A stretch of DNA of 64,000 nt, from positions 192,001 through 256,000 of the forward strand of contig CAWVRN010000002.1 of the NCBI GenBank assembly GCA_963932905.1, written 5' to 3'. Position numbers and translations under genes: made by a program. Below, in pieces: positions 21,481 through 34,055 of this stretch (positions are counted from its first letter, which is position 1; every line of letters starts with the position of its first letter). Below the pieces are notes generated by a model. The model saw only the letters and a program-made list of their open reading frames with translations, was not told the DNA's origin and ran no database searches. The stretch is from an uncultured Bdellovibrio sp. (GTDB lineage: Bacteria; Bdellovibrionota; Bdellovibrionia; Bdellovibrionales; Bdellovibrionaceae).

Positions 21481-23260
21481 GGTCGTCGATACGTTTAAAG
21501 AATTTTTCTTTGCTTTCAAATTCAGTTAGGGTTTTTGCTTTGATCCAATTCCCGTGCGAATCAAAGAATAGAATTGTCGGTAGACCAACGATACTATACT
21601 TTTTCTTCAGTTCATTAAGCGAAGTTGAATCTTTTGTCGCATCCATTTTAAGAAGAACGATATTTTTTGTGCGTTCTCTGAATTCTGCCGATGAAAACAC
21701 TTTTTCTTCTAGTTCCCAGCAGGCTGCGCACCAATCAGCAAAGAAGTCGACGATCACTATTTTCTTATCTAATTTAGCCTGATCTAGCGCGGCGTCAGAA
21801 AATGGAGTCCATAGTTTATCTTTATTGAACTTAACTTCTTGGAATTCAGTGCCAGGACCTGATTTCCCATCAAGACCCGTGATGCCCATTACAAAAAATG
21901 CAAAACCTAAAATCAAGACAGCTTGCATGAAACCTTTGCGAACTAAATCACGTTTTCTGTTCGTCGGCTTTAGGAAAGCACCATATAAACTTGCAAGGAC
22001 CACAAGTCCCACTCCCAACACGCTTTGGAAAACGCGCAGAGGAACTAATAGTTCGAAGTAGTAAAAGAATCCTACTAGCATCAATGTACCCAGGATAACT
22101 TTCGTGGTTTCCATCCATGGGCCTGAACGTGGTAACTTGCGCATTAGTTCCGTTGAAGATCCTAGGATAATGAAAATCAAACCCATGCCCATCGCGTAGG
22201 TAAATAGTAGAAAAAAACCAAATACAGAGTTTTGTTGGGTTGAGACATAAGTCAAAATAGAAACTAGCACTGGTCCCACGCATGGACTTGCTACGATGCC
22301 AGCGAATAAACCAGAAAGATACGCGCCTAGGTATCCCTTTTTCTGAGGACCTTGACCAAATCGTTGTGTGATAAATCTTGGCATTTGCAAATCGAAAGCG
22401 CCGTACATCGAAAGAGCCATCAAGAAAAACAGGCCGCAGATGAATGTCAACACATAGGGATTCGACAGAATTGAGCCAAATAACATTCCTGATTTAGCTG
22501 CTATTAGTCCCAAAACAGAATAGGTTGTGGCGATACCCAGTACGTAAACAACACTGATCAAAAAGTTTGTTAATCGCGTTCGTTTTTCGGAATGATTATT
22601 TAAAATAGCTAACGTGATTGGGATCATTGGGAAAATACACGGGGTAAAACTAGTTACGATACCGGCCAAGAAGGCTAGGATCAAGGCAAGCCATAAACTT
22701 TGCCCTAAAAAGTAACTAAATCCTTCAGCAGAAAATAGCGACATATCTTTTGGCATATTAGCCAGTGTGGGCTTTTCTTTTCCGACAAATGTGACAGGTA
22801 GAGAAACATCTTTGCTTTTTGGGAACAAACAAAACGCATCCGAGCATGCCTGATATGTTAATTCGAAAACTAGCTTTCCGTTGTCATCGACAAACCGGTC
22901 CGGCGTTTCTAGAAGTATAGACATGGCCGAATTGCCTTCAACACCTGTGCGATCTTTTTTAGAAAATTTATCGAACCATTTTTTTAATGGATTCAGAGAA
23001 ATTGATTTTACGATGATTCCCGATGGTTCTAGAACTGTAATTTTAAATTGATCTTCATAAGCATGAAAACCTTTAGGCAATTGCAAATTCAGCTGAACAG
23101 AATATTCGTTCTTAGGTTTGATTTCCGACGGACTTGACGCCACCTGAATGCTGAGAGGATCTTTTGCATTTTCTTGTGCGTGCGAAGTATTCATGCCCCA
23201 AAGGCCAGTTGTCAGCGCAATAAATGCTAGTAGTGTGGTTGTCAGTCGAGTGTTATGCAT
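21458..23260 (-). CDS. dsbD: Thiol:disulfide interchange protein DsbD
   Basis: N-domain YQACSDAFCLFP; TM domain TPCIFPMIP and ASPCVGP; thioredoxin DFFADWCAACWE. Confidence 0.94.
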   Translation of the reverse strand: MHNTRLTTTLLAFIALTTGLWGMNTSHAQENAKDPLSIQVASSPSEIKPKNEYSVQLNLQLPKGFHAYEDQFKITVLEPSGIIVKSISLNPLKKWFDKFSKKDRTGVEGNSAMSILLETPDRFVDDNGKLVFELTYQACSDAFCLFPKSKDVSLPVTFVGKEKPTLANMPKDMSLFSAEGFSYFLGQSLWLALILAFLAGIVTSFTPCIFPMIPITLAILNNHSEKRTRLTNFLISVVYVLGIATTYSVLGLIAAKSGMLFGSILSNPYVLTFICGLFFLMALSMYGAFDLQMPRFITQRFGQGPQKKGYLGAYLSGLFAGIVASPCVGPVLVSILTYVSTQQNSVFGFFLLFTYAMGMGLIFIILGSSTELMRKLPRSGPWMETTKVILGTLMLVGFFYYFELLVPLRVFQSVLGVGLVVLASLYGAFLKPTNRKRDLVRKGFMQAVLILGFAFFVMGITGLDGKSGPGTEFQEVKFNKDKLWTPFSDAALDQAKLDKKIVIVDFFADWCAACWELEEKVFSSAEFRERTKNIVLLKMDATKDSTSLNELKKKYSIVGLPTILFFDSHGNWIKAKTLTEFESKEKFFKRIDDLRVQIED

Positions 23261-23268
23261 TTCATATC

Positions 23269-23295
23269 CTATCGGTCTTTGGATAGTATAACTTA
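23269..23295 (-). promoter_or_regulatory. Putative sigma28-type promoter of dsbD
   Basis: TAAG-N15-ACCGATAG, 8 nt before the ATG at 23260. Confidence 0.45.
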
Positions 23296-23362
23296 GTTCT
23301 GAAGAAAGGTTGAGAATCTTTTCAGACCTAGGTCCGGAAAAATCAAACTTTGTGCCCTGGTC

Positions 23363-23389
23363 TCAATATTTTACGGCGAGTGCCGATTA
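23363..23389 (+). promoter_or_regulatory. Putative sigma28/FliA promoter of motAB
   Basis: TCAA-N15-GCCGATTA versus consensus TAAA-N15-GCCGATAA, upstream of motA. Confidence 0.7.
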
Positions 23390-23406
23390 TTTACTCGAGG
23401 TAAAAT

Positions 23407-24273
23407 ATGGGATTTGTAGGTGTTATAGTCGTTTTCGCCATGGTGTTCGGTGGTTTCATTTTAGCCGGTGGACATTTAAGCGTTATCATTAGTGCAGCCC
23501 CACTTGAATTGATGATCATCGGGGGAGCCGCTCTGGGCGCGTATATTATCGCTAACCCTCTAAAAATTATCAAAGCGGGATTCAAGCTTGGTATACACGC
23601 GATGACGGCAAAAGGTCCTCAAAAAAGTGACTACTTAGAGCTTTTGCAATTGTTGTTTCAGATCTTTCAAGTGTTCCGTAAAGAGGGACCTCAAGGGATC
23701 GAGAAACATATTGAAGATCCAACCAAGAGTGAAATTTTTAAGGCGTATCCAAATTTTATGAAGAATCATCACGCCGTACATTTTCTGTGCGACACGATGA
23801 AGATCACACTATCTGCTGAATTATCTCCATATGACGTAGATGATTTACTAGATGGCGATATCAAAGCGATCCACGCCGAAGAACATATGGCTCAGCATGC
23901 AGTGCAAGCCGTAGCCGACGGGTTCCCGGGACTAGGGATCGTTGCCGCCGTTCTTGGTATCGTTAAAACCATGGGACATTTAACTGAAGGTACCGAAGTT
24001 ATCGGTCGCCTTATCGGTAATGCCCTTGTTGGAACGATGTTAGGGGTTTTCGGTGCCTACGGTATGATCGGTCCAGTTGCATCTAAGATGGCTGCTGATA
24101 TCGAAGCGGAAGGTCGTTATTTAGGATGTATTAAAGCAGCTATGATTAGCTTACAGCGAGGCGCCCCTCCCTTAGTGTGCGTAGAGTTTGCTCGTCGTGG
24201 AATCATGCCTGAAGAAAGACCAACATTCGAAGAAATGGACAAGGCAACAAAAGACATTAAGAAAGCGGCCTAA
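23407..24273 (+). CDS. motA: Flagellar stator protein MotA
   Basis: ELMIIGGAALGA, RKEG...IEKHIEDP, DGFPGLGIVAAVLG, ALVGTMLG, VEFARR...RPTFEE. Confidence 0.95.
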   Translation: MGFVGVIVVFAMVFGGFILAGGHLSVIISAAPLELMIIGGAALGAYIIANPLKIIKAGFKLGIHAMTAKGPQKSDYLELLQLLFQIFQVFRKEGPQGIEKHIEDPTKSEIFKAYPNFMKNHHAVHFLCDTMKITLSAELSPYDVDDLLDGDIKAIHAEEHMAQHAVQAVADGFPGLGIVAAVLGIVKTMGHLTEGTEVIGRLIGNALVGTMLGVFGAYGMIGPVASKMAADIEAEGRYLGCIKAAMISLQRGAPPLVCVEFARRGIMPEERPTFEEMDKATKDIKKAA

Positions 24274-24293
24274 TCAATAGGTCAGTTAGAAAT

Positions 24294-24315
24294 AGAGTCG
24301 CACTGATGCGACTCT
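24294..24315 (+). other. Intergenic stem-loop between motA and motB
   Basis: AGAGTCGCA-ctga-TGCGACTCT, perfect 9-bp stem with no U-tract. Confidence 0.6.
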
Positions 24316-24336
24316 GAGTAGTAAACGAAGGAACCA

Positions 24337-25278
24337 ATGGCTAAAGAAAAACCAATGATCGTTATCAAAAAAGTCATCGTGACCGGAGCCGGTCACCATG
24401 GTGGTTCGTGGAAAGTGGCCCTGGCCGACTTCATGACTGCGATGATGGCGTTCTTCCTGGTTATGTGGCTATTGGGTCAATCCGAAGATACCAAGAAAGC
24501 GATCTCTGATTATTTTTCGACTCCATCCGTGATTGAATACAATTTCAAAAACTATGGTGCGACGATCACATTGGAAAAACTATTTTTGGATTTAGTGAAT
24601 GAACCTCTGCAAGCCTTTGAATCGTTCATGGAACCAATGGATAAAACTCCGAATTTACTAGATATGGGTTCGGCCAGCGTTGTAGCGGGTTTCCTTGCAG
24701 ATTCTTTAGCCGAAGATGCTCAGAATGTTAAGATTGATCAAACAGGTTTTGAATTTGATCTGCCAGAAACAATTTTGTTTGCAAAAGGTTCTGCGGAGCC
24801 AGGCACTCGATTCATTGAAGTCATGGATAAAATCAAAGGTGTTACGACAGGTTTAGAAGATGCAAAAATCGAATTGAAATCTGTGGTAACAACTGGGACG
24901 TTGACAGATTCCCAAGAGAAAAACGCAATGGACGTGGCTCAGGCACGTTTGGATTTAGTTTCCAATAAAGTGAAAGCTGGTCTTGAAAGCACAACAGTGG
25001 ACATCAACGGCGGAACCAGTGTTGTGAACACTAAAGGTGATCCGGCTGCAGAAAAGAAAATTGGTTTTGTCCGTATTTCTATAAAGCAAAAAGACCTTAA
25101 ATCTAATGGTCAACCACAAAGAAAATTGGAATCAGCATTTGGACCGGCTAATCAGGAAGTAAATGTTTATGATAATTTTGTGAACCAATTAGCTAACCAA
25201 AAGAAAAACGCGGCTGAAGCTAAACCTGAAAAAGGTGACAATAAAGGCAGCGCGAAACCAGAGTCTATCAAAAAATAG
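24337..25278 (+). CDS. motB: Flagellar stator protein MotB
   Basis: HHGGSWKVALADFMTAMMAFFLVMWL with the conserved Asp; C-terminal OmpA-like domain is degenerate. Confidence 0.92.
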   Translation: MAKEKPMIVIKKVIVTGAGHHGGSWKVALADFMTAMMAFFLVMWLLGQSEDTKKAISDYFSTPSVIEYNFKNYGATITLEKLFLDLVNEPLQAFESFMEPMDKTPNLLDMGSASVVAGFLADSLAEDAQNVKIDQTGFEFDLPETILFAKGSAEPGTRFIEVMDKIKGVTTGLEDAKIELKSVVTTGTLTDSQEKNAMDVAQARLDLVSNKVKAGLESTTVDINGGTSVVNTKGDPAAEKKIGFVRISIKQKDLKSNGQPQRKLESAFGPANQEVNVYDNFVNQLANQKKNAAEAKPEKGDNKGSAKPESIKK

Positions 25279-25352
25279 AAACCAAGAATATTGAAACTAA
25301 TGGCATTTCTCAGATTGAGATAGGGCCGTTGGTTTGCATCGATTTAGTTTAA

Positions 25353-26051
25353 ATGAATTGGTTTCACGTACTGTTGGCTTTATTACTGCTTTCTTTAAAC
25401 GGTTACGCCAACAATAGGGTTAGTTTATCGGAATATCTGCGTAAATATAGTATTGCCGACCTTCGTCCTACGCAGGCTGCCGTTGGTTTTCGTGAAGTAA
25501 AACGGAAAAAGAACAAAATCGAAAATCTTAAATCACATAAAAATCTGCAAGAGTATTTTGAAGGTAATTCGGTGCCGGTAGTTTTGGGGCCAAATGATCA
25601 AGTCTATATGATTGATCATCATCATTTTACCCTAGCGGCTAGCCGGGCTGGGTATAACGAAGTCTATATTCACATAATTGCCGATTTATCTGCGCTCAAC
25701 ATTCAGCAATTTTGGAAAGAAATGAAATCGAGAGCCTGGGTTTATTTGAAAATTAAAGGTCGCACCATTAGTGAATATATGCTGCCACGATATATTACGG
25801 GATTGGTGGATGACCCGTATCGTGCTTTAGCCGGGAAAGTTCTTCAAAAAGACGGCTTCAAAAAAACGGAAACTCCGTTCGCAGAATTTGAATGGGCTGA
25901 TTTTTTTCGCACGCGTATTTCTTCAGAGTTAGTTGATAAGGACTATACCAGAGCCGTTGAGGTTGCTTTGAAACTTGCAAAGACCGATGCCGCAAAGAAA
26001 CTACCGGGATATAACGGTAACGCGCTTTGCATCGAAGTCTATGCTCAATAA
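25353..26051 (+). CDS. Secreted ParB/Srx-like (ParBc_2-type) protein
   Basis: Signal peptide MNWFHVLLALLLLSLNGYA; LRPTQAAVG, IDHHH, DDPYRALAG, TPFAEFEWADFFR. Confidence 0.85.
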   Translation: MNWFHVLLALLLLSLNGYANNRVSLSEYLRKYSIADLRPTQAAVGFREVKRKKNKIENLKSHKNLQEYFEGNSVPVVLGPNDQVYMIDHHHFTLAASRAGYNEVYIHIIADLSALNIQQFWKEMKSRAWVYLKIKGRTISEYMLPRYITGLVDDPYRALAGKVLQKDGFKKTETPFAEFEWADFFRTRISSELVDKDYTRAVEVALKLAKTDAAKKLPGYNGNALCIEVYAQ

Positions 26052-26126
26052 AAACATAACGTAAAATAGGTATTGAACTGCCATACGACTGTTGAATTTA
26101 AGCCCAAGTTCAAGAATACTTATTGA

Positions 26127-27350
26127 ATGACAAACACCGCGACTACATCAAAAAAATCTATTTATTTTATATTTGCTACGATCATGCTGGATATGATCGG
26201 TATTGGTTTAATCATGCCGGTATTGCCAGACGTAATTAGACGTTTTATTTCTGATCCTGGTCAGGTCACTGAAAATTTTGGATATTTTATCGCAATTTAC
26301 GCAGTCATGCAGTTTGTGGCATCACCTATATTAGGTGGCTTATCTGATCAGTTCGGTCGTCGTCCAATTTTACTTGGTTCTTTGTTGGGTGCCGGTATCG
26401 ATTATATTTTTATGGCTTTAGCGCCGTCGCTGAATTTACTTTTCTTGGGCCGTATTATCGCAGGGCTGACTGGCGCTAGCATGACGGTGGCTAATTCTTA
26501 CATTGCGGATATTTCGGACGATAGTAATCGTTCGTCTAATTTTGGAATGATTGGAGCTGCTTTTGGGATTGGATTTATTGCCGGTCCAATCATAGGTGGT
26601 TTGCTGGGACACTTTGGTCCGCAAATGCCGTTCTACGGTGCTGCCGTATTAAATATTTTAAATTTCTTATTTGGGTTATTTATTTTACCCGAATCTTTGA
26701 AAAAGGAAAATCGGCGAGTTGTTAACTGGAAAAAACTAAATCCGTTCACGACGATCGTTAACACGATGAAAATTCCGGCCATGAGTTTGTTTGTATTAAC
26801 ATACGCATTGTTGTTCCTTGCTGGTAACGTGCATCCAAGCGTTTGGACACTGTACACAGAATCTAAATTTGGTTGGAACTCAATCCAAGTAGGCATTTCG
26901 CTTAGCTTCGTTGGATTAATTTACGGAATGAGCCAGTCGTTGTTAACCTCAAAATTAGTTCCGAAGTGGGGCGAACAAAAATCACTGGTCATCGGAATTT
27001 TCTTTAATGCGTTTGGATTTTTGTTATATGGAATCGCGCCATTTGGTTGGATGATGTATGGGATTATGGTGCTGTCGGCACTACAGGGACTATCGATGCC
27101 GTGTTTGCAATCGATTATGACCAAAAAAGTAGACGTTCGCTATCAGGGAGAATTACAAGGTGGACTGGTTTCTGTTGGCAGTCTCACATCGATTTTAGCG
27201 CCGCTGATTTATACAAATACCTTCAATTGGGGATCCCAATCGGGCGAAATGATGTTGTTAGGTGCGCCTTATTTTGTGGCCACGTTGTTCGGATTGCTCG
27301 CTCTATTTTTGGTTCAAAAAAGCTTGGGAAATAGGCCAGCACAAGTCTAG
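26127..27350 (+). CDS. TetA-like (DHA1/TCR) MFS efflux transporter
   Basis: LDMIGIGLIMPVLP, GGLSDQFGRRP, GRIIAGLTGA, FGIGFIAGP, LPESL, QGELQG; about 12 TMs. Confidence 0.92.
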   Translation: MTNTATTSKKSIYFIFATIMLDMIGIGLIMPVLPDVIRRFISDPGQVTENFGYFIAIYAVMQFVASPILGGLSDQFGRRPILLGSLLGAGIDYIFMALAPSLNLLFLGRIIAGLTGASMTVANSYIADISDDSNRSSNFGMIGAAFGIGFIAGPIIGGLLGHFGPQMPFYGAAVLNILNFLFGLFILPESLKKENRRVVNWKKLNPFTTIVNTMKIPAMSLFVLTYALLFLAGNVHPSVWTLYTESKFGWNSIQVGISLSFVGLIYGMSQSLLTSKLVPKWGEQKSLVIGIFFNAFGFLLYGIAPFGWMMYGIMVLSALQGLSMPCLQSIMTKKVDVRYQGELQGGLVSVGSLTSILAPLIYTNTFNWGSQSGEMMLLGAPYFVATLFGLLALFLVQKSLGNRPAQV

Positions 27351-27517
27351 TTGCGTGGATCATTCCGTCGAGCTTATTGACGGTGACTGTCTGTGACTCA
27401 ATGTAAATCGTTTAGCTAGGCTTGTGTGGTTATATCAAATAGGACTTACTTCAGATTGGAACGGTTATCGCTAGATAAACTCTGGAAATATCAGTCTCGT
27501 TTGAATAGAGGAAGTCA

Positions 27518-29635
27518 ATGCCACAGGCTACGGACCAGCGTCAAAGATTCTTGTCAATCTCAATGTCTATTTTACTGGTCATTTCGCTTCTCGTTTCAGT
27601 TGTCCCTTCGACATCTACGGCTGTCGCTTCAAGCCAACATTGTTCACAATTTTATCGCGGCTTTAAAACAGATGTGTTGTTCGGGATTTCCCCGACAGCT
27701 GGAGTTTATACATCTAGAGCATCCGACTTTGTTTCTGTGAAGAAGGCCATTGAACGTGTGAACGAAGCGGTCAGTTTATCACATAAAAGCCATAAAAAAG
27801 TGTCCATGGCTAATAGTCGAAATTTATTTGTTCTTAGCGAGCAATGGGAACCATTAGCAAGTTCTTTCGCAGCTTATGAAAACGCAAGATTTGTTGTTGC
27901 CGATAAAATGATCGACGCACCCACTGGCACTGTCTTGTACAAAAATGTTCAGTTCGGCTACAAAGGTGTGCAAAAGACGGGACCCTATTTAGATAAATTA
28001 AAAAAATCGGGATTTAAAAATTATGGGACATTGACCTATATTTTGGCAGACGCAATGTCTGGAAAAATATTAGAGGTTGGCGGAATTCATAAGGATCTTT
28101 TGGCCGAATTTAGGTTGCATTTACTAGGACGTGAAGTTCAAGAAAAAGAACTACGACGTTATTCAGAAGTTTATAAGATGATGATCGAGCATTTCCAGCG
28201 ACAGGCAGACGGTCGCGTTGTACTTGCCGAATTTAATAGAAAACGAGGATGGCCAGAAGGATTTGCAGAAAATGCCGGGCTTTTCTACTTAGAAAATGTT
28301 CAGGCTCTAATTGCGTGGGCTCGACAAAACCAAGTAACTCAAGAAGAACTAGTGCGAATGGGTGTTGTTCGTCGTAACTATACCCAGTTAGGAACTCGAA
28401 ACGAGTATTCGATGATATGTTCCCATTCGATAATGATCCCATATTTTTCTCCAAAAGGCGATGTGGTCAAACTTAAAGCGCGACAACTAAAAAAGACTAC
28501 GACAGGTAAAAAGTATCTCGATTTTTCAGAAGATAAAACCATCACCAATGGTAATCAGTTACATCGACGTTTATTTAATTCGGCTGTGTTAAATCATATC
28601 CAAGGCAAACCAGTTATTATTACCGAAGGCGAAATTAAAAGCCTGGTGGCCACACGAATTGGTAAAATTGATACTGTGGCTATTCCTGGAATCAGCCAAT
28701 TTGAAGACGACATGGCTCATGCGCTTGTTGCGGCCAAAGCGTCAGAATATATTGTTGTTTTAGATCGTGATCCTGAAGGTAAAGCATTGATGAATTTGGA
28801 TCATTTGACGGACAGCCAGCGTGCTGCCTACGTTATTGCTGCAAAATTAGAAGAAGCTGGAGCTCCTGTGGTTAAAGTCGGCATAATCCCGGATTCACAA
28901 GGGACTGGTAGTAAAATAGGCCTTGATGATATGATATTACAACACGGCCCTGACAGTGTAAAAGATCTTGTCAAAAATGCTAAGCCACTAAAAGCATATG
29001 CTGAAGCTATTCACGCAGATCAACAAATTGCCGAGAATATAGGGATACAAACGATATTGACTCAAGCTCTACGTGTTGGACATTTAGCAATGAAAAATGG
29101 GTTGGCTTCTGTTGATGCCAATGATGTTCGGATGTTAGAAAAATTTAGATCTCAAGTACTTGCTGATTTTGAAAATCATTTGGCGACTAATTATCCGGGT
29201 TCTCGAAATCTAAGACAACCTACTTATGGATATAAATTTATTCCACCTCAAACAGATCAAATGCCTAATCCAAGAAAATTCAAAGCTCAAGGGGGCGATC
29301 CCGAATTAAGTTTCGGTCGAAAAGACTTTCTGAATGCCATTCTACTGTTTGAAGTTGTCGATTCAAAATCAAGTTTGATAGATAACGACCTGATTGTTGC
29401 GACCAACCAAAAGACACGAGAGCAATTGAAGGTGATTTTTCCAAATGACGAATATGGATTTGCAGAAAATGTCACGATTAGTAAGTCTTTCGGTGGGGCG
29501 ATGGAGACTATTCAGGTTCCTCTGCTGATCTATCGATTGGAATCCCATAAAGTTGTGGCTCTGGCTCGTCCCTCAGAGCTGACCAAACAAGAAGAAAGTG
29601 ACTGGGATTCTGATTTGTTGGCCATGGTCCGTTAA
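27518..29635 (+). CDS. Signal-peptide-bearing protein with a DnaG-like catalytic core/TOPRIM domain
   Basis: SD gaggaag; hydrophobic N-terminus ending AVA; RG...GLFY...LVRMGVV...IMIPY...G.VV...AR...KYL...LFN; ITEGEIK, VAIPG, VVLDRDPEG, KIGLDD. Confidence 0.8.
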   Translation: MPQATDQRQRFLSISMSILLVISLLVSVVPSTSTAVASSQHCSQFYRGFKTDVLFGISPTAGVYTSRASDFVSVKKAIERVNEAVSLSHKSHKKVSMANSRNLFVLSEQWEPLASSFAAYENARFVVADKMIDAPTGTVLYKNVQFGYKGVQKTGPYLDKLKKSGFKNYGTLTYILADAMSGKILEVGGIHKDLLAEFRLHLLGREVQEKELRRYSEVYKMMIEHFQRQADGRVVLAEFNRKRGWPEGFAENAGLFYLENVQALIAWARQNQVTQEELVRMGVVRRNYTQLGTRNEYSMICSHSIMIPYFSPKGDVVKLKARQLKKTTTGKKYLDFSEDKTITNGNQLHRRLFNSAVLNHIQGKPVIITEGEIKSLVATRIGKIDTVAIPGISQFEDDMAHALVAAKASEYIVVLDRDPEGKALMNLDHLTDSQRAAYVIAAKLEEAGAPVVKVGIIPDSQGTGSKIGLDDMILQHGPDSVKDLVKNAKPLKAYAEAIHADQQIAENIGIQTILTQALRVGHLAMKNGLASVDANDVRMLEKFRSQVLADFENHLATNYPGSRNLRQPTYGYKFIPPQTDQMPNPRKFKAQGGDPELSFGRKDFLNAILLFEVVDSKSSLIDNDLIVATNQKTREQLKVIFPNDEYGFAENVTISKSFGGAMETIQVPLLIYRLESHKVVALARPSELTKQEESDWDSDLLAMVR

Positions 29636-29784
29636 GGACATAGCCTTGGCCAGGTATTGCGTCAAAAGATGGCCAAGTTTTATTAGTAATTCGCAAAAAA
29701 TCCCGAACGCCTATGGTTATAACTAAACAGTTTTGACATTAGTATTTTAGCTCTAATATGATCACTCTATCTAAATAGGGGTGT

Positions 29785-32028
29785 GTGATGAAATTATTGG
29801 TGGGGTTATTTCTATTAACAATGAATGTCTTTGCATTAGATTCACGGACTAAGCCGCCGGCAGAAAAGCCACCGGCAGATCGTTCTGCTGATGTAAACCG
29901 AGTGAATGTATTCGCAAATAAGAATTCGCTAGATCAAGTCCTTGGAGATCAAAAATTCCAAGAACGATTTGCCGCCATCACCGGTCCTTTAGAACAGCAA
30001 TGGCCAGCCATCACAACGGATTTGAAAAGTCGCTTCAGTCGTGAAATTGACCGCTACAATTTTTCAACTGTGTTTGGTCTTCAAGGAAATAAACTAAAAA
30101 TTCTGGGCGGTAATGTCGCCGAGATCGAAACAAATATTAAAAACTTTCAAATTTCTGCAGACGCATACTACCGCTTAGAATTAAAACCTTCGTTCCGTGA
30201 AGGTAAACAAATGCGTAAAGATATCTATGTGATTGGTTTGAAAGGATCGAGCACGATTTCGATCGGTTCTGAAGTCAGAATTACTTTCTTCCGTGAATTT
30301 GATTCAAAAGCCGATGCCTTATCAAATTTAAAACCGTACGGTTTGGACCGTATACCTAAAAGTTCGGCAGATTTAATTAAGAAAATTAATATCGATGACG
30401 GTGTTCGCGTAGAAGTAATGGGAAATTTAGAAATTTCGAAAGAGTTTAATAAAATCGCGAATAGTTCAAACTTGTCGGCGATCTTGGGTTACGACTTGTT
30501 TCAAGGCCTATTCACGGCCGATATCTATCGCTACACGGAAACTGATGTACGTGCGCGTTTCATGGGAACGATCAATCGGGGTACAGTGAAAGCAAAAGCG
30601 GGTTTGAACTGGCTGTATAGCTTTAAAGGAGCGAAGATTTTACCACGATGGTTAAAAGAGTTATTTGAAGTGAATTTAGATGTTAATATTTCTAAGTCGT
30701 TTAACTTTTTCGATAGGTATCCTATCGAAACTCACGTTGCTGATTACTATTTTAGATTTAACAATATGACGTTGATACAAGCTTCAGTTCCACCGGGTTG
30801 TAACTTTCAAGTTCCAACGGGTATTGCCTCTATTGATAGCGCAGGATTAAGCCCTGAGGCGGCGTTTGACGAAGTTCTTCATAATGTTCGTAGTGGTAAA
30901 TTCATGGCTGTCTTTAATCCTAATCTCGAAGAGTCTGCATTGTCAGCCTCTTTCCTAAGAAATGCCTCTCGAGCGGAAACCATAGCCTGTGTGGATGCCT
31001 CGTTGCCAAATTATAAAAAACGCGTACAGCATTTTTTCAAGGGCCGCATGTTGTCTGATGTGTTCTCTTTGAACTTTGGTCCTAAGATCAGTCATTTGCT
31101 ACGTAGTACTCAAACAGAAGGAAATTCTGAAGTGTATGTGGCCTCACTAGAAAGAGGACAAGAATTTAACTACTACATTTTGCTAAATACCGCGACGAAG
31201 ACTGAAAATTCGTTTTTATTTGGCCGGTGGGAAAACGAATACGAATCAGATTTGGATGCTTTATATCAATCGGACAAGGAAAAAAATATTCGTGGGTTTT
31301 TGGATTTCGTAAAGCGTATTCAGTACCGTGACAAAGTAATGTCGACGTCTAAATTAAGTGAAATCCGCGACATCCTAGCAAGATCAATCCCGACGAATTT
31401 TCCAGATAGAAATAAATTGTTGGATTTGGTTCCAAAAACAGAACAACGTGATGCGTGGATTTCTTTTGTCTACACATTGTCTAGTCGGGTTATTTTTGAA
31501 TTAGAAAAAATGGACAAATTGGTTTTGTACACGAAGTTAGCTAACTTCGTTGCAAATCACCCAGAAAGAAATCGGATGGGTTTGCCATCCGATAATAACG
31601 AGGGTGGTGAAATGAATCAGACTGAATATATCAATGAGTTATACTATCGCTTGGTGAAATTAACGGATTCGACTCAAAATTCAAAAGATCGTTTTCGAGC
31701 GTTAGAACAATTGATGAAAGACCGGATTTTCACTGAATATATATTCCGAGAATTCTTTCCATCATTGATTACGTCAGATATCGCCAATAATGAAATGAGT
31801 GTGGCAATGAGTGTAACCTCAAAAGATATCACTTTGGCTGAAGATCGTATCGGTAACAACCAATACTCCCAAGTCTACAGTGCTGTTCTGCTACTACGAT
31901 CGATCCTAAATGATAGATCACTAGATATCCGTTTAGAAAGCGCCACTGCGGCGGATCCGTCGGCGGACGCTGTATCTGGTCCTAATTCCTCGAACCCAGT
32001 TAATATGAAGGGCTTCAAAGTGTTTTAG
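29785..32028 (+). CDS. Large secreted hypothetical protein
   Basis: Signal peptide MKLLVGLFLLTMNVFA; 747 aa, mixed beta and alpha; no family recognised. Confidence 0.8.
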   Translation: MMKLLVGLFLLTMNVFALDSRTKPPAEKPPADRSADVNRVNVFANKNSLDQVLGDQKFQERFAAITGPLEQQWPAITTDLKSRFSREIDRYNFSTVFGLQGNKLKILGGNVAEIETNIKNFQISADAYYRLELKPSFREGKQMRKDIYVIGLKGSSTISIGSEVRITFFREFDSKADALSNLKPYGLDRIPKSSADLIKKINIDDGVRVEVMGNLEISKEFNKIANSSNLSAILGYDLFQGLFTADIYRYTETDVRARFMGTINRGTVKAKAGLNWLYSFKGAKILPRWLKELFEVNLDVNISKSFNFFDRYPIETHVADYYFRFNNMTLIQASVPPGCNFQVPTGIASIDSAGLSPEAAFDEVLHNVRSGKFMAVFNPNLEESALSASFLRNASRAETIACVDASLPNYKKRVQHFFKGRMLSDVFSLNFGPKISHLLRSTQTEGNSEVYVASLERGQEFNYYILLNTATKTENSFLFGRWENEYESDLDALYQSDKEKNIRGFLDFVKRIQYRDKVMSTSKLSEIRDILARSIPTNFPDRNKLLDLVPKTEQRDAWISFVYTLSSRVIFELEKMDKLVLYTKLANFVANHPERNRMGLPSDNNEGGEMNQTEYINELYYRLVKLTDSTQNSKDRFRALEQLMKDRIFTEYIFREFFPSLITSDIANNEMSVAMSVTSKDITLAEDRIGNNQYSQVYSAVLLLRSILNDRSLDIRLESATAADPSADAVSGPNSSNPVNMKGFKVF

Positions 32029-32055
32029 TAAACAGGGTCACTAATTATACAAATG

Positions 32056-32085
32056 AAAAAGCCACCTTGCGGTGGCTTTTTTTTT
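32056..32085. terminator. Bidirectional rho-independent terminator
   Basis: aaaaaGCCACC-ttgc-GGTGGCttttttttt between convergent genes. Confidence 0.88.
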
Positions 32086-32088
32086 AAC

Positions 32089-33867
32089 TTATTCAAAAGT
32101 TCTAGTTCGTCTTTGTGTTGGTGCTGCTGAATCGCCTCGGCGTGGAGGTGGCATTGAACCACCGCTACGAGGACGACGACTGTAGCCGCCTCTTTCACCG
32201 CCGCGTGCTTCACTGCGCTCGCCGCGACCCTCAGTGCGTTCAGCACGTTCTGGGCGATCACCACCGCGATCATCGCGATCACGGAATGATGTTGGCGCTT
32301 CTTCACCGCGTTTAGCGAAACGGTCTTTGGCAAAATGAATGGCTGTTGAACGTTCACGACGACGGTCACCGCGCATAAAGCTTGGACGTGAATCGGTACG
32401 AGGGCCACGACTACCATACCCGCCAGCTTTGAAGTTTGGATCCATTTCGCGAGGAATACGACCATTCAAGAAATCAAATGGCACTTCATAATCAGATGCC
32501 GACGCATCGACTTTAGAAGCCAAGAATTTAAAGATTAATTCTTCTTTAGTTAATTCATTCAATGCTTGGAATTCAGACGTAGCTTTGAAATTTTCTTTCA
32601 AAGTTGGAGTCAATCCACCCGCTTTTAAATTTAAAACAGCTTCACTGGCTGACTTTAATTTGTGATTTAAAACTTCAGATAACGTTGGGATGTTACCTTT
32701 GATCAAGTTAGCTTTAGTTTTCTGTTGAACTGTTTTTAGTAAAGACAATTCACGCGGAGAAACAAGAGTATAAGAGAAACCTGTTTTACCGTTACGGCCA
32801 GTACGACCAATACGGTGAACATAAGATTCAACATCCCATGGTAAATGGAAATTCACTACGTGTGTTAAATCAGGAATATCTAAACCACGAGCGGCAACGT
32901 CAGTTGCCACGATAACTTTAACTTCTTGGCTCTTGAAACGTTTTAAAGTCCACTCGCGCTCTTTTTGGCTCTTATCACCATGAAGAGATTCAACATGGTA
33001 ACCACGTTTGTTTAGCTCTTGTTCGATCTGAGCACATTTGATTTTAGTTTCGCAGAAAATGATTCCGTAGAAATCATTTAAAGCATCTAACAAGTGAGTT
33101 AACGCTTTTAATTTCAAATCTTCTTTTACCGTGAAGTAAAGCTGAGTGATTTGCTCTGATAAGTTACCTTTTCTTTGAACTTCAACCATTGTTGGATCAT
33201 TCAAATATAAGCTAGTGATCTTTTTGATCGCTGGGCTCATCGTTGCAGAGAATAACCAAGTTTTGCAACCCGCGCGACGTTGTTTGCCACGTGGTTGATC
33301 TTCGTCTTGATCAGCATCATCTTTAGATGCTGATTTTTTCTCGGCATGAGTTTGCGCCAAGATTTCTTCTAAAGAATCACGGAAACCCATAGAGATCATT
33401 TCATCCGCTTCATCCAAAACCAAAGTCTTTAATTCGCGAATGTGGAATACACCTTGATCAAGCAAATCGATCAAACGACCTGGGGTCGCTACGATAACGT
33501 GCGCGCCACGACGTACATCTTCGATTTGTGTGCGATAGCTAGCACCACCGTAGATCGCTGCTACTTTCATTTTTTTGAATGATGAAAGCGTTTTTAATTG
33601 CTCAACGATTTGTAATGCTAATTCACGTGTTGGACTTAGGATCAAAGCTTGTGGAACTTTTTTCGCCATATCCAAATGCTCGATCATTGGTAGACCGAAT
33701 GCGGCTGTTTTACCAGTGCCTGTAGCGGCTAAACCGATAAAATCGCCTTCATGTTTTAATAATATTGGGATTGCTTTTGTTTGAATTTCTGTCGGAGCGA
33801 CGAAACCAATGCCTTCCAAATGTTTGATTAGCTCAGGCGATAAGCCTAAGTCTTCGAACGAACTCAT
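32089..33867 (-). CDS. DEAD-box ATP-dependent RNA helicase (DeaD/CshA-like)
   Basis: Q motif, ATGTGKT, PTRELA, TPGR, DEAD, SAT, ARGLD, HRIGRTGR; Arg/Gly/Glu-rich tail. Start MSSF at 33867 has SD gagg. Confidence 0.96.
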   Translation of the reverse strand: MSSFEDLGLSPELIKHLEGIGFVAPTEIQTKAIPILLKHEGDFIGLAATGTGKTAAFGLPMIEHLDMAKKVPQALILSPTRELALQIVEQLKTLSSFKKMKVAAIYGGASYRTQIEDVRRGAHVIVATPGRLIDLLDQGVFHIRELKTLVLDEADEMISMGFRDSLEEILAQTHAEKKSASKDDADQDEDQPRGKQRRAGCKTWLFSATMSPAIKKITSLYLNDPTMVEVQRKGNLSEQITQLYFTVKEDLKLKALTHLLDALNDFYGIIFCETKIKCAQIEQELNKRGYHVESLHGDKSQKEREWTLKRFKSQEVKVIVATDVAARGLDIPDLTHVVNFHLPWDVESYVHRIGRTGRNGKTGFSYTLVSPRELSLLKTVQQKTKANLIKGNIPTLSEVLNHKLKSASEAVLNLKAGGLTPTLKENFKATSEFQALNELTKEELIFKFLASKVDASASDYEVPFDFLNGRIPREMDPNFKAGGYGSRGPRTDSRPSFMRGDRRRERSTAIHFAKDRFAKRGEEAPTSFRDRDDRGGDRPERAERTEGRGERSEARGGERGGYSRRPRSGGSMPPPRRGDSAAPTQRRTRTFE

Positions 33868-34055
33868 AGTACCTCTTTCGAACAAGTCGCAACTTGTTCT
33901 TATGTGCTAGAGGGCATCTGAGTCGGCTTCACTATGTCACGTTTTCAAACGCTCTCTTTAATTAGTAGAGCGCAATCTACAGTAATAATTGGGAAATTCC
34001 CAGTTATTAAATTACTTTGTCTTTTTTATCGGGTAAAAATGAGAAAAAACAGTCT

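What the first reader, a model, noticed from the sequence alone, without database searches (positions are those of the whole stretch)
27518..29635. Apparently exported DNA primase-like (DnaG core/TOPRIM) protein
Seen: an N-terminal hydrophobic stretch ending in A-V-A, about 190 aa of unknown domain, then a DnaG-like catalytic core with acidic TOPRIM motifs (TEGE, LDRD, GLDD), then an unknown C-terminal region. No CHC2 zinc-finger CxxH...CxxC is visible, and the gene is not in an rpsU-dnaG-rpoD or phage/plasmid context. Established: DnaG acts on cytoplasmic DNA, so export is paradoxical. Inference: a repurposed TOPRIM nuclease or nucleotidyltransferase acting on prey or extracellular nucleic acid.
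Basis: partly seen in the sequence, partly recalled or inferred. Interest (0 to 1): 0.8.

Follow-up and report, generated by a model that had tools for sequence, protein, structure and literature searches.

The report
Exported primase-core enzyme with cysteine tag
This Bdellovibrio-type bacterium has a normal DNA primase gene and also a second protein whose predicted fold is the primase catalytic core behind a predicted export signal and a short cysteine tag; about 70 other predicted exported proteins share the tag, so it is likely a weapon acting on the nucleic acids of prey cells rather than a replication enzyme.

Summary

It belongs to a distinct family of about 65 clusters with invariant catalytic residues:
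- Short forms (Bdellovibrionota where labelled): 39 of 42 have a signal plus a Cys.
- Long forms: 0 of 26 have both. They add a second, degenerate core, often dsRNA-binding domains, and carry labels such as Saccharibacteria, Patescibacteria and Omnitrophica.

The Cys is part of a C-x-x-[FVY]-Y tag enriched at protein termini in this genome (38 C-terminal hits, 2.7 in shuffles). The 74 tagged proteins include RelA-, ADP-ribosyltransferase-, ClpB- and kinase-like enzymes and no envelope-type domains. Six relatives hold an allele only 23-26% identical at this locus.

Best reading (0.40): a Sec-exported effector that reaches prey cytoplasm and uses NTPs on nucleic acid, probably RNA. Main rival (0.22): a nuclease. 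Export, delivery and activity are untested. The scan found this family before in another genome (e1-2984804); ten paper searches found no description.

The parts
27518..29635 (+). Gene for the 705-aa signal-bearing DnaG-core protein
   Evidence: single copy in the genome
27507..27512 (+). Shine-Dalgarno-like AGAGGA before the ATG
27518..27628 (+). Predicted Sec signal peptide, residues 1-37, ending A-V-A
   Evidence: sequence; hydropathy and charge scan; same architecture in homologs
27641..27655 (+). C-x-x-F-Y tag (C42-S-Q-F-Y46), just after the predicted cleavage site
   Evidence: Cys invariant in 13 of 13 rows; genome-wide terminal enrichment
27683..28132 (+). N-terminal helix plus beta-rich domain (about residues 56-205) where DnaG has its zinc finger; fold not identified
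   Evidence: secondary structure of model; no profile match to CHC2 zinc fingers, probability 0.06
28139..29038 (+). DnaG-type RNA-polymerase core (residues 208-507): basic-ridge subdomain (R243, R322, K332-Y333) plus TOPRIM
28622..28639 (+). TEGEIK motif: catalytic E370 and invariant K374 (Asp in DnaG)
   Evidence: E370 and K374 in 58 of 58 rows
28763..28771 (+). D416-R-D418 (DxD metal ligands)
   Evidence: both Asp in 58 of 58 rows
28913..28930 (+). K466-I-G468-L-D470-D471 motif (DnaG has D-P-D-D)
   Evidence: K466, G468, D470, D471 in 58 of 58 rows
29240..29632 (+). C-terminal alpha/beta domain (about residues 575-705) with conserved FPxDEY...PLxI; fold not identified
   Evidence: no usable Atlas hit; REase-like guess not supported
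27324..29672 (.). Stretch with no DNA similarity to a syntenic relative whose flanks align at about 80%
   Evidence: blastn against L029 aligns 23001-27323 and 29673-34000 only
25353..26051 (+). Nearby ParB-like nuclease gene with signal-like N-terminus and the same tag at its C-terminus (C-I-E-V-Y)
   Evidence: PF08857 E 3.8e-50; in tagged set

Best explanation
The protein has the predicted fold and the conserved catalytic residues of the DnaG primase core but no zinc finger, and it is likely an exported effector that a presumed predator would deliver into prey cytoplasm, where it would likely use NTPs to add or build short nucleotide chains on nucleic acid, probably RNA. Steps: (1) Shown: DnaG-core fold, intact acidic and basic active-site residues, separate housekeeping dnaG. 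(2) Predicted: Sec export with cleavage after A37, leaving C-x-x-F-Y at the new N-terminus. (3) Inferred: the tag, which sits at the mature N-terminus or the extreme C-terminus of about 70 exported proteins, is an address for a second transport step out of the cell and into prey. (4) Inferred: without a zinc finger it cannot prime at specific sites, so it polymerises or tails nonspecifically, corrupting prey RNA or draining NTPs. dsRNA-binding domains on the long relatives point to structured RNA as substrate.
Against: No export, delivery or enzyme activity was measured, and the organism is uncultured, so predation is assumed from its family. Two DnaG acidic residues are replaced (D270 by K374, D343 by G468), so the chemistry may differ from primase; the same pattern occurs in mobile-element primase-like proteins. 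Without curation, cytosolic-cosubstrate enzymes are not enriched in the tagged set (12 of 74 against 7 of 60, p 0.62). The difference appears only after removing seven control proteins that I judged by eye to be cytosolic proteins mis-called by my signal filter (12 of 74 against 1 of 53, p 0.008). The motif was chosen after seeing the data. The window's protein lacks both a dsRBD and the CxxxxC pair. Only 6 long forms have a taxon label, all from MAG records, and two labels (Bdellovibrionales, Gammaproteobacteria) do not fit a clean split.
Confidence: 0.4

Rival explanations
1. It is exported and delivered as above, but the TOPRIM centre has been turned into a nuclease (like RNase M5) that degrades prey RNA or DNA for food or killing.
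For: TOPRIM metal ligands are intact while two DnaG acids are replaced. Neighbours and fusions are nuclease-like: EEP genes follow the gene in L015 and L018, an EEP domain is fused in P0047, and a tagged ParB-like nuclease lies two genes upstream. Bdellovibrio secretes signal-bearing nucleases into the bdelloplast (PMC7925074, passages). dsRBDs fit RNase-like action equally well.
Against: The whole primase N-terminal subdomain and its basic ridge are invariant (R243 and R322 in 58 of 58). RNase M5 matches only the TOPRIM part.
Confidence: 0.22
2. It is exported but works outside any cytoplasm (own periplasm, prey periplasm or medium) as a nucleic-acid-binding or processing protein for scavenging, and the tag is only a general secretion or folding signal.
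For: The tagged cohort also holds ordinary secreted hydrolases: S8, S9 and S41 proteases, PhoD, GDPD, PLD. Sec export alone reaches only the periplasm (established knowledge). The genome has a GspD-like secretin.
Against: NTPs are scarce outside cells (established knowledge). The cohort's ATP-, NAD-, acetyl-CoA- and UTP-dependent members and a peptide-deformylase-like protein would have no cosubstrate there. Long relatives without a signal keep the same active site.
Confidence: 0.18
3. The N-terminal segment is an uncleaved anchor (or is not used), and the enzyme is an accessory primase or repair enzyme in the cell's own cytoplasm.
For: This would explain the cytosolic cosubstrates directly. 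The gene is stable: 8 of 10 genomes of the genus carry it, one copy each, chromosomal. Long relatives have no signal.
Against: Short h-regions with small-residue cleavage-like sites and non-negative n-regions (34 of 34) point to N-in/C-out topology. There is no zinc finger or helicase partner. Sequence divergence at a fixed locus is unlike housekeeping genes. It was found in only 10 of 400 other phylum genomes with the narrow profile.
Confidence: 0.08
4. It is a domesticated mobile-element primase that is passed between cells to prime transferred DNA, as SogL is.
For: The nearest outside relatives are TEGxxK/KGxDD primase-like proteins of mobile-element type. SogL primase is transferred by conjugation (PMC8406263, passages). 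The genome has conjugation genes.
Against: The locus is chromosomal housekeeping in 6 of 7 genus relatives with the gene. Conjugative substrates are taken from the cytoplasm without a Sec signal (established knowledge). The family is its own clade (SH-like 98, FastTree).
Confidence: 0.05

Closest known systems
Bacterial DnaG primase, RNA-polymerase domain (PDB 4edg, 5guj, 1dde; TIGR01391)
   Different: No CHC2 zinc finger. EGxxD is EGxxK and DPDD is GxDD. Has a signal peptide, tag and two unassigned domains. 47 bits against a cut-off of 284. The genome has a separate dnaG.
DUF3854 / CyRepA-type and other mobile-element primase-like TOPRIM proteins
   Same: TEGxxK and K-G-x-D-D motif pattern; weak DUF3854 hit; nearest rows outside the family in the tree.
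   Different: CyRepA proteins are plasmid replication proteins with a C-terminal DEXDc helicase domain, and DUF3854 function is stated as unknown (PMC10079941, passages). This protein has no helicase, is chromosomal and has a signal.
SogL primase of IncI1 plasmid ColIb-P9
   Same: A primase that leaves its cell and enters another; several hundred copies are transferred (PMC8406263, passages).
   Different: SogL is a T4SS substrate of a plasmid. This protein has a Sec-type signal and a Cys tag, sits in a chromosomal locus, and has no known DNA cargo.
TOPRIM nucleases (RNase M5, PDB 6tpq/6z2b; OLD and AriB recalled)
   Different: RNase M5 matches only the TOPRIM part. This family keeps the primase N-terminal subdomain with invariant basic residues.
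Secreted Bdellovibrio nucleases Bd0934 and Bd3507
   Same: Signal-bearing nucleic-acid enzymes released into the bdelloplast (PMC7925074, passages).
   Different: Described as DNases; I did not compare their sequences. No tag is mentioned in the passages seen.

Membership tests
DnaG primase | RNA-polymerase-domain fold (N-terminal subdomain plus TOPRIM) | tested here: met
DnaG primase | Catalytic Glu, DxD and basic ridge | tested here: met
   E370, D416, D418, R243, R322 in 58 of 58 rows
DnaG primase | Asp of EGxxD and first Asp of DPD | tested here: not met
   K374 and G468 in 58 of 58 rows, against D270 and D343 in this genome's DnaG
DnaG primase | N-terminal CHC2 zinc-binding domain | tested here: not met
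   only Cys42 and Cys301; no PF01807 hit; profile probability 0.06
DnaG primase | TIGR01391 curated cut-off | tested here: not met
   47.4 bits against 283.6
DnaG primase | C-terminal DnaB-binding domain | tested here: inconclusive
   no Pfam hit; model shows an alpha/beta domain; domain-only fold search could not be run
DnaG primase | Primer synthesis on ssDNA | not testable with these tools
   needs an assay
DUF3854 / CyRepA | TEGxxK and KGxDD-type motifs | tested here: met
DUF3854 / CyRepA | Pfam cut-off, fused helicase, plasmid location | tested here: not met
   20.5 bits against 23 and no helicase hit; chromosomal synteny
TOPRIM nucleases (RNase M5 type) | TOPRIM without the primase N-terminal subdomain | tested here: not met
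   RNase M5 covers only 364-492, DnaG covers 208-507
TOPRIM nucleases (RNase M5 type) | Metal-dependent phosphodiester hydrolysis | not testable with these tools
   needs an assay
Sec/SPase I exported proteins | Basic n-region, hydrophobic h-region, small-residue cleavage site, no lipobox Cys at +1, no twin Arg | tested here: met
   own heuristic and by eye; no trained predictor available
Sec/SPase I exported proteins | Actual processing and localisation | not testable with these tools
   needs proteomics or fusions
Conjugation-transferred primases (SogL/TraC) | Encoded on a conjugative element beside T4SS genes | tested here: not met
   housekeeping neighbours in the window and in six relatives
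DRT-associated DnaG-like defence protein (PADLOC PDLC03800) | Adjacent reverse transcriptase | tested here: inconclusive
   41.6-bit hit to the model; the two flanking genes gave no RT hit, but not all window ORFs were scanned

The most novel reading that the evidence does not exclude
C-x-x-[FVY]-Y is the terminal address of an undescribed Sec-dependent route by which Bdellovibrionota put dozens of enzymes into the prey cytoplasm. One cargo is a primase core turned into an RNA-tailing or oligonucleotide-making toxin. Patescibacteria and Omnitrophota use the same weapon, fused to dsRNA-binding domains, and deliver it by their own export routes.
Probability: 0.25. Interest if true: 0.9.

Novelty: new variant of a known kind. 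Interest (0 to 1): 0.7.

Why it matters
A 2026 review states that the prey's cytoplasmic membrane stays intact while its DNA, RNA and proteins are degraded behind it (PMC13689555, passages). The passages I saw name no route for predator enzymes to cross it. A five-residue terminal tag on about 70 predicted exported proteins, several of kinds that need cytosolic cosubstrates, makes that route testable with one Cys-to-Ala change. A primase core used as an inter-bacterial effector would be a new use of a textbook replication enzyme. Its presence in predators and in epibiotic lineages would point to a shared toolkit for attacking host cells.

Tried and rejected
1. C-terminal domain as a dead PD-(D/E)xK/HsdR-N fold: suggested by the helix-three-strand-helix pattern, not supported by hhalign (probability 0.07). 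The test was weak, using only five weak HSDR_N_2 matches.
2. N-terminal domain as a degenerate zinc finger: probability 0.06.
3. RNase III domain in long forms: profile hits to RNase III chains are better explained by dsRBDs. The middle part is a degenerate repeat of the primase core (probability 97.5, E 6e-12).
4. Allele replacement at the locus: FastTree and IQ-TREE place the window allele apart from the syntenic alleles, but the AU test does not reject grouping them (p 0.485). Replacement and fast evolution in place remain undecided.
5. The 105-row mixture-model tree did not finish, so the family tree is FastTree only.
6. Single-sequence PDB search gave only noise. The single-protein scan of named genomes found nothing. 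The metagenome scan found only an identical copy, L135.
7. No RNA holder was listed; this is no evidence either way.
8. The promoter/terminator scan found no promoter-like site upstream of the gene.
9. Domain-only folding and the Foldseek and wide VIA searches never ran because the machine was busy, so the folds of residues 56-205 and 575-705 are open.
10. Paper searches listed no paper describing this family or tag. The library lacks most subscription papers, and bioRxiv supplements could not be seen.

Full report

The family. A profile search of 1.84 billion representatives gave 79 hits at E<=0.001, 64 at 1e-10 and 49 at 1e-30. With the narrow profile, 12 of 401 phylum genomes matched: this one, 10 full-length members and one weak partial hit. 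A broader profile found it in 8 of 10 genomes of the genus. In a FastTree of 105 core domains, 76 rows form one branch (SH-like 98), apart from DnaG-like and mobile-element TEGEFK proteins. R243, R322, Y333, E370, K374, D416, D418, K466, G468, D470 and D471 are invariant in 58 of 58 aligned rows. Against this genome's DnaG, the catalytic Glu, the DxD and the basic ridge are kept, while D270 is Lys and D343 is Gly. That pattern is shared with DUF3854-like proteins. A paper describes DUF3854 as Toprim-related, of unknown function, in cyanobacterial plasmid Rep proteins (PMC10079941, passages).

Two architectures. Short forms (mostly about 700 aa; Bdellovibrionota in most labelled loci, one labelled Deltaproteobacteria): of 44 examined, 42 are N-complete. 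Of these, 39 have a hydrophobic segment (10-residue mean >=1.75) followed by a Cys; 34 pass the stricter 2.0, and all 34 have non-negative n-region charge. The three misses are P0009, P0028 and P0049. I left out P0031 (same gene as L022), P0062, P0065, P0067 and P0069-P0081; several rows are near-duplicates, so counts are not independent. Long forms (0.9-2.1 k aa): 0 of 26 N-complete ones have signal plus Cys; one, labelled Omnitrophica, has a signal and about 500 extra N-terminal residues. The 19 long forms aligned consist of the short form, a second core lacking the catalytic motifs (internal repeat probability 97.5), and C-terminal dsRBD-like domains. PF00035 hits 12 of 29 long proteins scanned, 9 over cut-off. 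Six long forms have labels: Saccharibacteria, Patescibacteria, Omnitrophica, Rickettsiales, Bdellovibrionales and Gammaproteobacteria, all MAG titles. A CxxxxC pair occurs in 21 of 34 short and 0 of 21 long forms with sequence at that site; the window's protein lacks it. EEP nuclease-like genes follow the gene in two loci and are fused in one protein.

The tag. After seeing I defined C-x-x-[FVY]-Y. In 3995 ORFs of this genome it occurs 135 times: 64 in the first 90 residues, 38 in the last 16, and 33 inside. Local shuffles give 19.0 (max 33) and 2.7 (max 8), and odd and even contigs behave alike. 35 of 38 C-terminally tagged proteins have a hydrophobic N-terminus, against 52% of all ORFs. I scanned all 78 tagged signal-like proteins; 34 have Pfam hits at E<=1e-4. 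Four were then dropped by a filter applied to both sets (three membrane proteins, one short protein). Of the 74, 12 resemble enzymes needing cytosolic cosubstrates or substrates: RelA/SpoT, two ClpB-like AAA/M41 fusions, two ABC1 kinases, PARP-like (below cut-off), ADP-ribosyltransferase, GNAT, UDPGP, peptide deformylase, glycosyltransferase and acyltransferase. None has an envelope-type domain. In 60 length-matched untagged controls drawn from a pool of 1061, 17 have envelope-type domains (Fisher p 3e-7). Seven are cytosolic enzymes that my crude filter mis-called, so the cosubstrate enrichment is absent without curation (p 0.62) and present with it (12 of 74 against 1 of 53, p 0.008). The classes are my judgement.

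The locus. In six relatives the gene lies between the same MFS gene (73-94% identical) and the same 747-aa gene (50-85%). Their alleles are 23-26% identical to the window's and 44-90% to each other. DNA similarity to L029 stops at 27323 and resumes at 29673. The AU test cannot reject a common clade (p 0.485), so this is either replacement or fast evolution in place. Both are more typical of conflict genes than of replication genes (inference).

Mechanism. Shown: fold, residues, separate dnaG, conserved signal-like N-terminus, terminal tag. Predicted: Sec export and cleavage after A37. Inferred: the tag routes the protein onward into prey cytoplasm. The invariant basic ridge, recalled as the NTP-binding site of DnaG, argues for nucleotidyl transfer. 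The missing zinc finger, recalled as needed for site-specific initiation, argues for unspecific tailing or oligomer synthesis. The dsRBD fusions argue for RNA. My odds: export about 0.9, reaching another cell's cytoplasm about 0.7 given export, nucleotidyl transfer rather than hydrolysis about 0.6; jointly about 0.4. Rivals: nuclease effector 0.22, extracytoplasmic role 0.18, anchored cytoplasmic enzyme 0.08, conjugation primase 0.05.

Known systems. It works like a DnaG core but fails DnaG membership (no zinc finger, two acids replaced, far below the TIGR01391 cut-off). The nearest precedent for a primase leaving its cell is SogL, a conjugation substrate (PMC8406263, passages). Secreted Bdellovibrio nucleases are known (PMC7925074, passages). 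Secreted enzyme effectors of Bdellovibrionota and multi-domain giants of Omnitrophota have been proposed for other folds (PMC12419801, passages; bioRxiv 10.1101/2023.11.21.568195, passages, no occurrence of 'primase' or 'Toprim' in the main text, supplements not visible). Ten searches listed no description of this family or tag. An earlier unchecked note of this scan, e1-2984804, reported a signal-bearing Toprim protein with an EEP partner and a Cys tag in another genome. It agrees with my reading but is not independent evidence.

Verdict. A real, conserved and apparently undescribed variant of the DnaG core with a predicted export signal, belonging to a tagged cohort that looks like a predator's effector set. 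Interest 0.7.

Noticed in passing
G000 genome-wide (loci L057-L134): About 70 signal-bearing proteins carry C-x-x-[FVY]-Y at the mature N-terminus or extreme C-terminus. They include RelA/SpoT-, ADP-ribosyltransferase-, PARP-, ClpB+M41-, ABC1-kinase-, UDPGP- and deformylase-like proteins; 44 of 78 have no Pfam hit at E<=1e-4.
   Followed up: partly
window 25353-26051: ParB-like nuclease (PF08857) with a signal-like N-terminus and a C-terminal tag. It is present in L027 and L029 (51-70% identical) and not seen at the same place in L025 and L030.
   Followed up: partly
window 29785-32028: 747-aa signal-bearing protein with no Pfam, NCBIfam or PADLOC family. It follows the primase-like gene in six relatives and has its own 11-of-12 sigma-70-like promoter match at 29733-29762.
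   Followed up: no
L022:4498-10065: In a contig labelled Omnitrophica, the long form sits behind a signal peptide and an N-terminal region of about 500 aa with no Pfam hit. I recall this kind of N-terminus from Omnitrophota multi-domain exported proteins; not tested.
   Followed up: partly
L020:4921-5541: Standalone double dsRBD gene directly upstream of a 2099-aa family member.
   Followed up: no
L033, P0060, P0066, P0068: A Patescibacteria-labelled subgroup carries about 600 extra N-terminal residues with no Pfam hit ahead of the primase core.
   Followed up: no
L195 (G000 C7:39340-40065): Untagged signal-bearing protein with a weak NADAR-domain hit (E 8e-5, below cut-off) in the control set.
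   Followed up: no
L032:1653-12725: The Rickettsiales-labelled long form lies near serine-recombinase-like and Fic-like genes (named by eye), suggesting a mobile island.
   Followed up: no
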